From positions 1 through 58,172 of IMG/VR virus record IMGVR_UViG_3300028610_000686: DNA of 58,172 nucleotides; one strand, 5' to 3'. Of this stretch, positions 55,170 to 58,172 are shown in pieces. The first letter of the stretch is position 1; every line of letters begins with the position of its first letter. Source of the stretch: a virus. Its lineage: Duplodnaviria > Caudoviricetes. The position numbers and the translations under genes are program-made. Under the pieces are notes generated by a model. The model had not been told where the DNA came from. It made no database searches and was given only the letters and a program-made list of their open reading frames with translations.

Positions 55170-56159
55170 ATGATAAACAAAATAAAACAACACATAAAAG
55201 ATTTCGACAAGTTGAATATAATATTTCTAACCAAATTTGGTTCCCATTTATACGGGACCGATTCGGAATCATCCGATATTGATATTAAAGGCGTATTTCT
55301 CCCGACGACTGAACAGTGCTTTCTAAACGAAATTCCAAAATCACTTTCTTATTCATCTGGAAAAGATGACTCGAAAAATTCCAGTGATGATATTGATATC
55401 GAACTGTACTCACTGCATTATTATCTCAAGTTGCTGCAAAAAGGGGATACCGGCGCAATCGATATGTTGCACGCTCCAATGGCTGTTATTATACAAACAA
55501 GCGAGTTATGGGAGCAATTACATGATGATAGGAGAGAATTCTATACTACAAATCTCAGCGCATTCGTTGGCTATTGCAGGACACAGGCGAGCAAGTACGG
55601 AATAAAAGGGAGTCGTCTGAGTGATGCTAAAAAAGTACTTGACTATTTAGAACCTTTTAAAGATGAAGAAAATTCTCGAAAATTATTTGAAATATGGGAT
55701 AGTTTACCAACTGGGGAACATATACATAAAATCCCATCTAATCCTGAATTGAGAATTGATCACCCCATGTATCAAGTCTGTGGTAGAAAACTGCAATCAA
55801 CCGTGCCAATTTGGAGGGCTTATGGGTGCATTAATCATTTTTATCAAGAATACGGCAAACGAGCCAAACTAGCAGCGGAGAACAAGGGGATTAACTGGAA
55901 AGCCGTTAGTCATGCAATTCGTTGTGCATTCGAAATGCACTCGATTTATTCACAGGGAGGTCTCACATTTCCATTACGCCAAGCAGATTATATCAAAATG
56001 GTGAAAAACGGCGAACGTGATTATAAAGCCGTTGCTGAGAATCTTGAAACATTAATGGATCAGGTTGAAAACCTGGCAGCAAATTCGAAATATCCTAAAA
56101 AAGTGGATATGAAAAAATGGAATGATTGGTTAATCGATATTTACAGAAATCATGAATAA
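55170..56159 (+). CDS. Pol-beta-superfamily nucleotidyltransferase (T4 NrdC.11/RlaP-like)
   Basis: FGSHLYGTDSESSDIDIKGVFLP, GYCRTQASKYGIKGSRL, NWKAVSHAIR. Confidence 0.85.
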   Translation: MINKIKQHIKDFDKLNIIFLTKFGSHLYGTDSESSDIDIKGVFLPTTEQCFLNEIPKSLSYSSGKDDSKNSSDDIDIELYSLHYYLKLLQKGDTGAIDMLHAPMAVIIQTSELWEQLHDDRREFYTTNLSAFVGYCRTQASKYGIKGSRLSDAKKVLDYLEPFKDEENSRKLFEIWDSLPTGEHIHKIPSNPELRIDHPMYQVCGRKLQSTVPIWRAYGCINHFYQEYGKRAKLAAENKGINWKAVSHAIRCAFEMHSIYSQGGLTFPLRQADYIKMVKNGERDYKAVAENLETLMDQVENLAANSKYPKKVDMKKWNDWLIDIYRNHE

Positions 56160-56557: not shown

Positions 56558-56587
56558 TTGACATATTAAGAACATTATAAATATACT
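56558..56587 (+). promoter_or_regulatory. Promoter of the RHH / pentamer-array / RAMP operon
   Basis: TTGACA-18 nt-TATACT; the ATG follows 6 nt after the -10 box (leaderless-like). Confidence 0.6.
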
Positions 56588-56593
56588 ATAAAC

Positions 56594-56758
56594 ATGAAAA
56601 CAAAAACCATAATGGTCATGGTGACCGAGGATTTTAAAGAAAGGGTTCGAAAAGCTGCCAATCATGACAATAAAAGCTTGAGTGCTTATGTTATCGATTG
56701 CTTGCTTGTTGATCTCAAAAAACGAAAGGTTGAAAATATTAAATCTTTCAGTAAGTGA
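56594..56758 (+). CDS. Ribbon-helix-helix (Arc/CopG-like) regulator, 54 aa, below the ORF-track cutoff
   Basis: MKTKTIMVMVTEDFKERVRKAANHDNKSLSAYVIDCLLVDLKKRKVENIKSFSK. Confidence 0.7.
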   Translation: MKTKTIMVMVTEDFKERVRKAANHDNKSLSAYVIDCLLVDLKKRKVENIKSFSK

Positions 56759-56763
56759 AAACC

Positions 56764-56863
56764 GGCCAGGCAAGACGAGACATGGCGGGTCAAGGTGCGA
56801 CTTGGTCAGACTGAACCGGACAGGACAACGCACGATTCGACGAGTCAATTCAAGGCAAGATTT
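56764..56863 (+). ncRNA. Pentamer-periodic array 1 (17 x GDY-NN plus conserved tail), candidate guide RNA
   Basis: ggcca ggcaa gacga gacat ggcgg gtcaa ggtgc gactt ggtca gactg aaccg gacag gacaa cgcac gattc gacga gtcaa | ttcaaggcaagattt. Confidence 0.8.
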
Positions 56864-56886
56864 TTTAAACAATCAGGAGAAAAAAC

Positions 56887-57378
56887 ATGGATCAATCATT
56901 ATTTGAATTAAACGTTGATACACAAATCCTTTTTGATCGGCTTTCGACAATGAAAAAAGGTGATTTCATAGCTTACGAAACTTTGACTGATCTGATCAAA
57001 AAGAACGTTCAGATAGAAGGATATCGATATCTTTATACAGCCAGAAATATGATGCGCAAAATGCACGGCATTGTAATCGATGTAATCGAAAACGAAGGCT
57101 TAAGAGCTTTAACCGATGAAGAAAACATTGCATTGACCGGCAAAAGAGCTTTGAAAGGAATCCGTAACAAAGCGAAACTAGCAGCCTCGAAAATCACAAA
57201 GATTGATGATTTCAGCAAATTGAGCGATGAATCAAAAATCAAACACAATGCCCACCTTGGAATTTTCCAAATATTCATTGCAAACACCAGCAAGAAAAGG
57301 ATTGAAAAAGTTGAGAACAAGGTGGCTGAAACTGGTGAAAAATTGCCGATGAATGGTATTTTGGAATTGTTTAAGTGA
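56887..57378 (+). CDS. Unknown protein between pentamer arrays 1 and 2
   Basis: AGGAG RBS; 163 aa; array 2 starts 9 nt after the stop. Confidence 0.75.
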   Translation: MDQSLFELNVDTQILFDRLSTMKKGDFIAYETLTDLIKKNVQIEGYRYLYTARNMMRKMHGIVIDVIENEGLRALTDEENIALTGKRALKGIRNKAKLAASKITKIDDFSKLSDESKIKHNAHLGIFQIFIANTSKKRIEKVENKVAETGEKLPMNGILELFK

Positions 57379-57386
57379 TTATCCAG

Positions 57387-57455
57387 GGTGAGGCGTGGTT
57401 AGACAAGTCGTGATGAGTTGAGACAAGACGCGACAATTCAAGACAAGGATTAAAA
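57387..57455 (+). ncRNA. Pentamer-periodic array 2 (10 x GDY-NN plus conserved tail)
   Basis: ggtga ggcgt ggtta gacaa gtcgt gatga gttga gacaa gacgc gacaa | ttcaagacaaggattaaaa. Confidence 0.8.
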
Positions 57456-57482
57456 TGGGGGAAACTTATGATTTAAAAACAA

Positions 57483-57556
57483 GACGTGACCAGACCTGGA
57501 GAGACGCGGCATGATGGGATGCGGCAAGACGGGACAATTCAAGGCAAGGATTAAAA
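57483..57556 (+). ncRNA. Pentamer-periodic array 3 (11 x GRY-NN plus conserved tail)
   Basis: gacgt gacca gacct ggaga gacgc ggcat gatgg gatgc ggcaa gacgg gacaa | ttcaaggcaaggattaaaa. Confidence 0.8.
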
Positions 57557-57591
57557 CAAAACAATTCAAAACATTAAAATCAGGGGATTTT

Positions 57592-58152
57592 ATGAAAGTA
57601 GCAACAGTACAACTAAAAAGCATGGCTTCGTATTCACAGGGTCGATACCATGATACCGAAAAACTTAACAAAGAAAGCCACGCAGATTATGAAGAAAGAA
57701 CATGGAGAAACAAACTGCACGTAAACAAAGACGGATTTGTATTCATTCCGGCGATGGCTTTTAAAAATTGCATTTCGGAGTGTGCAAAATATCTGAGTAT
57801 TCAGATACCAGGAAAAGGGAAAGCGACGTATACAAAACATTTTGACGCCGGTGTTATTGTCAGTGATGCTTTAGTTCTGGATACCAAGGCGGAAGATGTT
57901 GAATGTGAAAGACTATTCATCCCGAATCCGGGGACAACCTCAAGAGTTAAAAAATCGTTTCCAATTATTCATGAATGGAGTGGCGAAGTTAAGTTTTTCA
58001 TTCTTGACGAAACGATAACAGAAAAAGTTTTTACTGACCACTTAAAGCAAGCCGGTCAGTTTATTGGAATCGGAAGATGGCGCCCGAGAAATCGTGGATT
58101 ATACGGACGTTTTACCGTTGAAAGTGTTGATTTTGCACCTTATGAAATTTGA
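57592..58152 (+). CDS. Stand-alone RAMP/Cas7(Csm3)-like protein, 186 aa (Vipr-like candidate)
   Basis: N-terminal strand VQLKSMAS, VFIPAMAFKNCI (compare IPGSSxKG in RAMPs), C-terminal Gly-rich loop AGQFIGIGRWRPRNRGLYGRFTV. Start reassigned to the ATG after GGGG because the longer ORF runs through array 3. Confidence 0.7.
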   Translation: MKVATVQLKSMASYSQGRYHDTEKLNKESHADYEERTWRNKLHVNKDGFVFIPAMAFKNCISECAKYLSIQIPGKGKATYTKHFDAGVIVSDALVLDTKAEDVECERLFIPNPGTTSRVKKSFPIIHEWSGEVKFFILDETITEKVFTDHLKQAGQFIGIGRWRPRNRGLYGRFTVESVDFAPYEI

Positions 58153-58172
58153 TGTGGGGTTGATAGGCAGGT

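What the first reader, a model, noticed from the sequence alone, without database searches (positions are those of the whole stretch)
56764..57537. Decoding the variable dinucleotides gives three testable gapped target patterns
Seen: NN strings, excluding the constant last pentamer, are A1 CA-AA-GA-AT-GG-AA-GC-TT-CA-TG-CG-AG-AA-AC-TC-GA; A2 GA-GT-TA-AA-GT-GA-GA-AA-GC; A3 GT-CA-CT-GA-GC-AT-GG-GC-AA-GG. Inference: if every third target base is skipped (NNxNNx...), the targets have codon periodicity and could tolerate wobble mutations. Read as codon prefixes they give plausible peptides such as [QH][KN][ED][IM]G[KN]A[LF], [ED]VY[KN]V[ED][ED][KN]A and V[QH]L[ED]A[IM]GA[KN]G. That plausibility is weak evidence, since most random strings also translate. 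I found no convincing self-target by eye, but the scan was not exhaustive.
Basis: inference. Interest (0 to 1): 0.85.

Follow-up and report, generated by a model that had tools for sequence, protein, structure and literature searches.

The report
Phage VIPR guide RNAs, targets unfound

Summary
Observation confirmed. The window holds exactly three phased pentamer arrays (scaffold G-R-Y plus a free dinucleotide), all on the + strand, against 0.04 expected.

Identity: a VIPR locus (bioRxiv 10.64898/2026.04.26.720920). The 186-aa ORF beside the arrays matches PDB 36pp 'SUSP1 Vipr protein' (E 9.7e-6) and folds as a Cas7/Csm3-like RAMP. The 163-aa ORF between the arrays is a conserved partner gene. 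GAC/NN variants are also already in print (10.64898/2026.10.21.760802).

Targets: none in the window. Exact 8-9-dinucleotide seeds in IMG/VR and JGI metagenomes gave only chance-level extensions for A1 and A3. A2 gave three distinct perfect 18/18 hits where about one is expected.

Positive control: a guide of relatives whose Vipr is 61% identical spells the HExxH motif of Peptidase_M78 genes under the 1-nt skip (26/26 once, 25/26 four times; hits in 15 of 301 genomes against 0 for the backwards-read control).

Verdict: a new member of a known kind. The scan has noted VIPR loci before in at least 35 genomes.

The parts
56558..56587 (+). sigma-70-like promoter (TTGACA, 18 nt, TATACT) ahead of the RHH gene; possible start of a transcript running through the arrays
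   Evidence: 11 of 12 consensus matches. The region has 5 promoter-like sites against 3.6 in shuffles, so this is a consensus match only. No + strand terminator-like site lies between 56350 and 57650.
56594..56758 (+). 54-aa ribbon-helix-helix-like protein directly upstream of array A1
   Evidence: Weak hits only: Pfam NikA-like E 1.7e-4, below its cut-off, and PHROG Arc-like repressor E 0.008. No homologue was found beside vipr in the 87 related loci. Membership in the system is unproven.
56764..56843 (+). vrRNA A1, variable tract: 16 GRY-NN units
56844..56866 (+). A1 constant 3' tail (three AA units, then GA and a T run)
   Evidence: Shared motif matched exactly at 56846-56860. No fold better than shuffles, z 0.29.
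56887..57378 (+). 163-aa accessory gene (vap-like), probably a winged-helix DNA binder with a helical C-terminal half
   Evidence: tblastn homologues (E below 1e-3) beside vipr in 24 of 87 related loci. AF2 pLDDT 92 with N-terminal H-strand-H-H-strand-strand topology. Foldseek finds no hit at E 1e-3 or better; the weak hits (E 0.03-0.35) are mostly winged-helix regulators. No similarity to SUSP1 vap1 and no Pfam or PHROG hit.
57387..57431 (+). vrRNA A2, variable tract: 9 GRY-NN units
57432..57451 (+). A2 constant 3' tail
   Evidence: Motif at 57434-57448; fold z -0.26.
57483..57532 (+). vrRNA A3, variable tract: 10 GRY-NN units (a further AAC-AA unit may precede it at 57478)
57533..57552 (+). 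A3 constant 3' tail
   Evidence: Motif at 57535-57549; fold z 0.33.
57592..58152 (+). vipr: 186-aa stand-alone RAMP (Cas7-like) with C-terminal G-loop GIGRWRPRN...YGRF
   Evidence: phmmer against PDB chains: 36pp 'SUSP1 Vipr protein', E 9.7e-6. BLASTP against the SUSP1 protein: 40% over 62 aa, E 1e-12. AF2 pLDDT 95.9. Foldseek top hits are type VII Cas7 and Csm3, E 2e-8. phrog_4652, E 9e-14.

Best explanation
The region 56558-58172 is a VIPR (Viral Interference Programmable Repeat) locus of an uncultured phage. A1, A2 and A3 are genes for three vrRNAs. By analogy with the solved SUSP1 system, one Vipr protomer (57592-58152) binds each pentamer. It buries the G-R-Y scaffold triplet and exposes the two free bases. 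The exposed dinucleotides pair with double-stranded target DNA in the pattern NNxNNx, starting from the 3' tail end, and the resulting filament blocks transcription of the target. The three AA units and GGATT at each 3' end are a handle, not guide. The 163-aa winged-helix-like gene is the accessory (vap-like) partner. The expected targets are genes of a rival phage, prophage or satellite in the same unknown host, read on codon positions 1-2 so that silent mutations cannot escape.

Shown here: the array anatomy, Vipr homology and fold, the conserved partner gene, absence of self-targets, and validity of the 1-nt skip for one guide of a related locus. Inferred: expression and processing of the three RNAs, filament formation, silencing, and the identity of the targets, which were not found.
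For: - Anatomy: three phased arrays and no others, with free NN against a constrained GRY and a shared 3' motif.
- Protein: sequence match to PDB 36pp SUSP1 Vipr. In the SUSP1 record that gene is flanked by GGT-NN arrays. RAMP fold.
- Family context: 74 IMG/VR and 13 genome loci encode homologues at 38-64% identity. 42 of the 74 viral loci show arrays by my criterion, nearly all on the vipr strand and ending in AA-GRC-AA-GG(T/A)TT-like tails.
- Partner gene conserved in 24 of 87 loci.
- No self-target: the best 1-nt-skip self matches are 22/32, 14/18 and 14/20, none above shuffled-NN controls. The paper likewise reports no self-hits of 80% or more.
- Rule in this clade: the 13-NN guide downstream of vipr in L008-L013, L045 and L070 (Vipr 61% identical to the window's). 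Full-guide scores were 26/26 once, 25 four times, 24 in 24, 23 in 54, 22 in 17 and lower in 17. Mean extension was 6.55 of 10 bases, against 2.5 by chance.
- The perfect hit lies in a Pfam Peptidase_M78 gene (E 1.4e-24), antisense to Q-R-F-T-I-A-H-E-I-G-H-Y, with NN on codon positions 1-2.
- With up to 3 mismatches, 15 of 301 genomes of one class match, against 0 for the backwards-read control.
- The four carrier proviruses have no match, 0 of 4. The three complete ones have no M78 gene, 0 of 3.
- The constant AA units do not pair: 96 of 101 distinct target flanks match neither AA unit.
- Literature: mechanism, 3'-to-5' R-loop growth and GGY contacts.
Against: - No target was found for any of the three guides.
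- The IMG/VR and metagenome searches need an exact run of 8-9 dinucleotides, so targets with scattered mismatches are missed. The host is unknown: homologues sit in MAGs of many phyla.
- There is no expression evidence. Only the probable source DNA run holds the stretch.
- The tails show no predicted structure, unlike the pseudoknot tail of the SUSP1 clade.
- The scaffold is G-R-Y with A commoner than G at position 2 (20 A, 12 G, 3 T), not GGY.
- SUSP1 contact residues R138 and D177 align to F123 and R162 here, so RNA recognition differs in detail.
- Of three homologous guides tried, only one gave a clear target. L173 g3 reached 25/32 and the L009 guide 18/22.
- An earlier unchecked note of this scan (e1-5963124) claims a contiguous code for another GGC clade. 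I did not test gap sizes 0, 2 and 3 at database scale.
Confidence: 0.9

Rival explanations
1. The locus is a VIPR system, but this clade reads targets with another register (contiguous, or a 2- or 3-base skip), so the three NNx patterns are the wrong decoding.
For: The scaffold and two SUSP1 contact residues differ. No NNx target was found for A1-A3. I searched databases only with the 1-nt skip.
Against: A guide from loci whose Vipr is 61% identical, with the same GIGRxRPRN G-loop type, has a 26/26 target in codon phase under the 1-nt skip. It also has hits in 15 of 301 genomes against 0 for the control. In the window, gap sizes 0 and 2 give nothing above shuffles either, and gap 3 finds only the arrays themselves.
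Confidence: 0.06
2. The arrays are not guides but phased binding sites for an oligomeric RNA- or DNA-binding protein that regulates the downstream genes (a TRAP-like leader with 5 nt per subunit). NN would then be meaningless spacers.
For: This was my first reading. Each array lies just upstream of an ORF. NN carries almost no information. No target was found.
Against: The neighbouring protein is a Vipr homologue with a RAMP fold. Spacers without meaning would not spell a conserved HExxH motif in codon phase in relatives. Related loci place arrays on either side of vipr regardless of downstream genes.
Confidence: 0.02
3. The system is real, but these three guides are orphaned: their targets are extinct or have drifted, or the guides act as decoys.
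For: No target in the public collections searched. The scaffold triplets of A1 are degenerate in places (GTC, AAC, CGC, GTC).
Against: The absence rests on low-sensitivity exact-seed searches and an unsampled subsurface community. vipr and the partner gene are intact, and their models are confident.
Confidence: 0.1

Closest known systems
Type II VIPR of Escherichia phage SUSP1 (Vipr ALH47069, PDB 36pp; vap1; four vrRNAs). bioRxiv 10.64898/2026.04.26.720920 and 10.64898/2026.04.26.720927 (Results and some methods read)
   Same: A stand-alone small RAMP with a C-terminal G-loop (G-x-G-x-W-R-P-R...G-R-F). Arrays of 9-16 five-base units on the gene strand, on both sides of the genes. A constant 3' tail and one small accessory gene. 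Phage-borne, with no self-target. The 1-nt-skip code with the skip on the wobble position is supported in this clade.
   Different: Only the C-terminal 62 aa align (40%). The scaffold is G-R-Y with A at position 2 in 20 of 35 units, instead of GGY. SUSP1 R138 and D177 align to F123 and R162. The tail is short, stays in pentamer register (AA units plus GGATT) and has no predicted fold, against a ~40-nt pseudoknot tail. The accessory gene is unrelated in sequence to vap1 and here lies upstream of vipr, between arrays.
Non-canonical VIPR arrays (GAC/NN, CAC/NN and others) with a Vipr-like fold nearby. bioRxiv 10.64898/2026.10.21.760802 (passages read)
   Same: GAC/NN pentamers next to a Vipr-like protein, interpreted as divergent VIPR systems.
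   Different: That paper gives clusters and logos, which I could not see (figures and supplements are not held). From the passages read it names no targets and no protein determinant of the scaffold. The window's arrays mix GAC with GGC/GGT rather than being purely GAC.
Class 1 CRISPR Cas7 backbone (type III Csm3, type VII Cas7)
   Same: RAMP fold; best structural matches at E 2e-8. One protomer per repeat unit of guide, with periodic flipped bases.
   Different: No CRISPR repeats, no cas1/2/5/6/8/10 nearby, 5-nt units with 2 pairing bases instead of 6-nt units with 5, and the guide is genomically hard-wired.

Membership tests
VIPR system | Vipr protein: stand-alone minimal RAMP (RRM core, thumb, G-loop) homologous to described Viprs | tested here: met
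   PDB 36pp SUSP1 Vipr, E 9.7e-6. BLASTP E 1e-12 over 62 aa. AF2 pLDDT 95.9 and Cas7/Csm3 Foldseek hits at E 2e-8.
VIPR system | vrRNA genes: tandem 5-nt units, conserved triplet alternating with hypervariable NN, 9-16 units, on the vipr strand in flanking intergenic DNA | tested here: met
   16, 9 and 10 units. Information per position is 1.63, 0.71 and 1.00 bits against 0.21 and 0.15. Only three such regions, all on the + strand. The triplet is G-R-Y, not strict GGY; non-GGY variants including GAC/NN are in print.
VIPR system | Invariable 3' tail after the repeat tract | tested here: met
   A 15-nt motif is shared by 3 of 3 arrays, and AA-GRC-AA-GG(T/A)TT-like ends recur in relatives. A structured (pseudoknot) tail, described for the SUSP1 clade only, is not predicted here.
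VIPR system | Accessory vap gene beside vipr | tested here: inconclusive
   A conserved 163-aa neighbour occurs in 24 of 87 loci with a winged-helix-like N-terminus, but only weak fold matches and no similarity to SUSP1 vap1. I cannot assign it to vap1-6 without the paper's supplements.
VIPR system | NN read by the 1-nt-skip rule on natural targets in rival mobile elements; no self-target at 80% NN or more | tested here: inconclusive
   For the window's guides: no self-target and no convincing external target. For a homologous guide the rule is met.
VIPR system | vrRNAs expressed as ~100-nt RNAs that co-purify with Vipr; transcriptional silencing | not testable with these tools
   No RNA run holds the stretch. 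Needs small-RNA sequencing, pull-down and a reporter assay.
VIPR types I-VII | Placement in the published Vipr phylogeny, vap class and array architecture | not testable with these tools
   The type definitions sit in figures and supplementary data (Fig. 5A, figs S16-S17, data S4), which are not held or are closed. The text names only YNNGG, NNNGG, YNNNG and NNNNG units. Y-NN-G-R is not among these words.

The most novel reading that the evidence does not exclude
In this Vipr clade the scaffold triplet may be set by one G-loop residue, the one aligned to SUSP1 D177. Loci with Arg there (the window included) accept GGC or GAC. Loci with S/F/V/Y/A use GAC/GAT almost exclusively, and this seems to have arisen more than once, which would give naturally orthogonal Vipr-vrRNA pairs. 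In addition, guides may be aimed at invariant motifs of gene classes the carrier phage lacks: the HExxH of ImmA/IrrE-type M78 peptidases in relatives, and possibly the ERF recombinase N-terminal motif spelled by the 5' half of the window's A1. That would make them broad-spectrum, silent-mutation-proof weapons rather than strain-specific ones.
Probability: 0.3. Interest if true: 0.45.

Novelty: new member of a known kind. Interest (0 to 1): 0.25.

Why it matters
On its own the locus adds one more VIPR system from an uncultured subsurface phage. It shows that a tool-less reader can recover the guide strings correctly.

The useful by-products are modest:
- The published 1-nt-skip code holds for a G-R-C-scaffold clade only distantly related to SUSP1, with a natural target at the catalytic motif of prophage ImmA/IrrE-type peptidases.
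- The constant AA units at the 3' end are handle, not guide.
- A candidate protein determinant of GGC against GAC scaffolds emerges, which could be tested for building orthogonal VIPR tools.

Nothing here opens a long-standing question.

Tried and rejected
- First reading rejected: a TRAP-like phased protein-binding leader. Vipr homology was found afterwards.
- Rfam: 0 matches. tRNA scan: 0.
- Self-target search at gaps 0-3 with 200 shuffled-NN controls per case: nothing above the controls except the arrays themselves at gap 3.
- IMG/VR, A1: NN1-8 gave 73 loci and NN9-16 gave 18. The best full score was 24/32 and the distribution ran 18-24.
- IMG/VR, A3: NN3-10 gave 26 loci, scoring 16 in 7, 17 in 13 and 18 in 6 of 20, a chance-level extension.
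- IMG/VR, A2: NN2-9 gave 17 loci, of which 6 score 18/18 in 3 distinct sequences; about 1 is expected from 17/16.
- A2, hit 1: L210/L224/L226, in frame in a 99-aa phrog_680 tail gene, but that phage has GC 0.55 against 0.37 for the window. A1 and A3 score at shuffle level on its whole 40-kb record.
- A2, hits 2 and 3: L216/L223 and L218, both out of frame.
- I reject all three A2 hits as not distinguishable from chance.
- JGI metagenomes: A1 NN8-16 gave 21 loci. The best were 26/32 (L238) and 25/32 (L236). By my arithmetic, tens of such scores are expected by chance in a collection of that size.
- All-against-all 8-NN seeds from 135 distinct arrays against the related loci and the window: one search showed 78 skip-1 hits. 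These were an artefact, because the database included loci I had fetched with that very seed. Without them there are 0.
- L008 guide at gaps 0-3 on 1.87 Mb of unrelated fetched DNA: nothing of 21/26 or more at any gap, so uninformative.
- Homologous guides L173 g3 (15 loci, best 25/32) and the L009 guide (4 loci, best 18/22): no target.
- Host inference failed. TerL is at most 48% identical to uncultured spring phages, and Vipr homologues lie in MAGs of many phyla.
- No RNA holder is listed for the stretch. Read laying, complex prediction, the protein atlas and the large protein searches were not used.
- Supplements and figures of the VIPR papers (types, logos, target tables) could not be seen. 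They may already cover this clade, its tail and M78 targets.
- Searches behind 'not in print': 'gac', 'ynnga', 'gry', 'm78' and 'imma' by find in two VIPR papers, and 'vrRNA' across the library.
Full report
WHAT IS THERE

Between 56764 and 57552 the + strand carries three tracts with an exact 5-nt period. Cut from the shared 3' motif, each unit is a G-R-Y triplet followed by a free dinucleotide.
- A1 (56764-56843) has 16 units, A2 (57387-57431) has 9 and A3 (57483-57532) has 10.
- Each tract is closed by three constant AA units and GGATT or GATTT. The 15-nt motif CAATTCAAGRCAAGR occurs exactly three times in the window, once per array.
- Over the 35 variable units the information content is 1.63, 0.71 and 1.00 bits at the triplet and 0.21 and 0.15 bits at NN.
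- A scan of both strands for at least 6 of 8 phased GRY finds these three regions and nothing else. One hundred first-order Markov simulations give a mean of 0.04 regions and a maximum of 1.
- Rfam has no match. None of the three tracts with its tail folds better than shuffles, with z between -0.26 and 0.33.

WHAT IT IS

My first guess was a TRAP-like phased protein-binding leader. A note of this scan on the same stretch used the word 'VIPR-like', which led me to three 2026 preprints.

VIPR systems consist of a stand-alone RAMP protein (Vipr), usually one accessory gene (vap), and vrRNAs made of 9-16 YNNGG units plus a constant 3' tail. One protomer binds each unit and sequesters GGY. The NN bases pair with dsDNA while every third target base is skipped. 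Targets are rival phages, prophages and satellites, often in codon phase.

The 186-aa ORF at 57592-58152 is a Vipr.
- phmmer against PDB chains finds 36pp 'SUSP1 Vipr protein' at E 9.7e-6.
- BLASTP against the SUSP1 gene gives 40% identity over the C-terminal 62 aa, E 1e-12. In the SUSP1 record that gene is flanked by GGT-NN arrays.
- An AlphaFold2 model built on 40 homologues has pLDDT 95.9. Its best PDB matches are type VII Cas7 and type III Csm3, at E 2e-8.

The 163-aa ORF between A1 and A2 has homologues next to vipr in 24 of 87 related loci. Its model (pLDDT 92) starts with a winged-helix-like topology, but the fold matches are weak, at E 0.03 or worse. It is unrelated in sequence to SUSP1 vap1.

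The rest of the window is a tailed phage with terminase, portal, capsid, RecT and HNH genes. It comes from an IMG/VR record estimated 81% complete.

RELATIVES

Seventy-four IMG/VR loci and thirteen loci in GTDB genomes encode Vipr homologues at 38-64% identity.
- By my criterion (at least 5 of 6 phased GRY), 42 of the 74 viral loci carry arrays. Almost all are on the vipr strand.
- Some are purely GGC, some purely GAC and some mixed. Most end in AA-GRC-AA-GG(T/A)TT-like tails.
- The genome hits lie in MAGs of many phyla, so they give no host.

IS THE DECODING RIGHT?

The window's Vipr is only distantly related to SUSP1's and the scaffold differs, so I tested the rule within this clade.

The test used the 13-NN guide that lies downstream of vipr in eight provirus loci (L008-L013, L045, L070), whose Vipr is 61% identical to the window's.
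Five other seeds of the same size hit 15-73, and one hit 4.
- Over all 117 loci the full guide scores 26/26 once, 25 four times, 24 in 24, 23 in 54, 22 in 17 and lower in 17. The five extension dinucleotides match 6.55 of 10 bases on average, against 2.5 by chance.
- The hits are homologous genes and so are not independent. Even so, by my arithmetic a 26/26 match in a collection of about 1e11 positions has a chance expectation near 4e-5.
- The perfect hit lies in a Pfam Peptidase_M78 (IrrE N-terminal-like) gene, E 1.4e-24. It is antisense to Q-R-F-T-I-A-H-E-I-G-H-Y, that is, the HExxH motif. NN sits on codon positions 1-2 and the skipped base on the wobble position.
- With up to 3 mismatches the full pattern occurs in 15 of 301 genomes sampled from one bacterial class. 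The same pattern read backwards occurs in none.
- The four carrier proviruses have no match (0 of 4). The three complete ones have no M78 gene at all (0 of 3).
- The constant AA units do not pair with the target: 96 of 101 distinct flanks match neither. Leaving the constant end out of the guide strings was therefore correct.

Two other homologous guides gave no clear target. I did not run gaps 0, 2 and 3 at database scale.

TARGETS OF THE WINDOW'S THREE GUIDES

In the window, the best 1-nt-skip matches are 22/32, 14/18 and 14/20. None exceeds 200 shuffled-NN controls, and gaps 0 and 2 give nothing either. This agrees with the paper's report of no self-targets.

The collection scans accept only exact patterns, so I used seeds of 8-9 dinucleotides and scored the rest of the guide in scripts.
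- A1, IMG/VR: 73 loci (NN1-8) and 18 loci (NN9-16), best 24/32.
- A1, JGI metagenomes: 21 loci (NN8-16), best 26/32 and 25/32. Such scores are expected by chance at that scale.
- A3, IMG/VR: 26 loci, with extension at the chance level.
- A2, IMG/VR: 17 loci, of which six are perfect 18/18 but only three are distinct, where about one is expected.
- Two of the three distinct A2 sequences are out of frame. The third lies in frame in a small tail gene of a 40-kb phage with 55% GC, against 37% for the window, and A1 and A3 score at shuffle level on that phage.

I therefore report no identified target. These searches miss targets with scattered mismatches, and the host community, a subsurface metagenome, is poorly sampled.

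One call needs a warning. One search seemed to show 78 skip-1 hits against 0-2 in controls. That was an artefact of including loci fetched with the same seed. Without them there are none.

SIDE OBSERVATIONS

(a) G-loop residue and scaffold.
- In an alignment of 40 Viprs, the G-loop residue aligned to SUSP1 D177 is Arg in 26, the window included. Nineteen of those 26 have arrays by my criterion.
- Among these 19, the share of GA (against GG) scaffolds runs from 0 to 0.61, highest in the window, which also has the lowest GC.
- Eight loci with S, F, V, Y or A at that position have at least 0.96 GA. One locus with Q has 2 GA to 3 GG on five units. Twelve loci showed no array by my criterion.
- On the Vipr tree the GAC-only label needs about four changes, of which at least two are forced by well-supported branches.
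- SUSP1 R138, which contacts the second G, aligns to a nearly invariant Phe here.
- This is a correlation, not a demonstration.

(b) A1 and ERF genes.
- The 5' eight dinucleotides of A1 spell Q-K-E-M-G-(N/K)-A-L, the N-terminal motif of ERF-superfamily recombinase genes (PF04404). This accounts for 24 of the 73 seed hits.
- The window phage has RecT, not ERF.
- The 3' half of A1 does not fit these genes (5-7 of 16, my count). In SUSP1 the R-loop grows from the 3' end. I therefore treat this as probably coincidence.

COMPARISON AND NOVELTY

The locus meets the defining features of a VIPR system that I could test: the protein, the arrays and the tail. The accessory gene and natural targets are inconclusive. 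Expression is untestable here.

It differs from the SUSP1 type in four respects: the scaffold (G-R-Y with A commoner than G), the short unstructured tail that stays in register, an unrelated accessory gene, and the gene order.

GAC/NN arrays beside Vipr-like folds are already in print (10.64898/2026.10.21.760802, passages read). This scan has noted VIPR loci in at least 35 genomes, including relatives with AA-ended guides and a winged-helix partner. I could not see the figures and supplements that define types I-VII, so I cannot place this clade among them.

VERDICT

No target was found. This is a new member of a known kind, of low to moderate interest.

Noticed in passing
window 57592-58152 (R162, F123); loci L006-L077: The G-loop residue aligned to SUSP1 D177 tracks the scaffold. 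Arg loci use GGC or mixed GGC/GAC (GA share 0-0.61 in 19 loci). Eight loci with S/F/V/Y/A use at least 96% GAC/GAT. The GAC-only state needs about 4 changes on the tree, at least 2 of them forced.
   Followed up: partly
L008-L013, L045, L070 at about 3602-3666; target L292:7976-8013: A conserved guide of related proviruses spells the HExxH motif of Peptidase_M78 (ImmA/IrrE-like) genes in codon phase. The carriers have neither a match nor an M78 gene.
   Followed up: yes
window 56767-56803 (A1 units 1-8): The first eight dinucleotides of A1 spell QKEMG(N/K)AL, the N-terminal motif of ERF-superfamily recombinase genes: 24 of 73 IMG/VR seed hits (PF04404). The 3' half of A1 does not fit, and the phage itself has RecT.
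   Followed up: partly
window 58153-58172: The record ends 20 nt after the vipr stop codon. Relatives usually carry further arrays just downstream of vipr, so a fourth array may be cut off.
   Followed up: no
window 9965-11041 and 12395-13531: Two paralogous phrog_2302 genes (annotated phosphoadenosine phosphosulfate reductase) lie 1.3 kb apart.
   Followed up: no
ARAGORN finds no tRNA or tmRNA anywhere in the window.
   Followed up: no
window 55170-56159: A 329-aa RlaP-type nucleotidyltransferase (Pfam PF10127 E 3.9e-17; phrog_388 E 3e-92) lies just upstream of the VIPR locus. It has no homologue beside vipr in the 87 related loci.
   Followed up: partly
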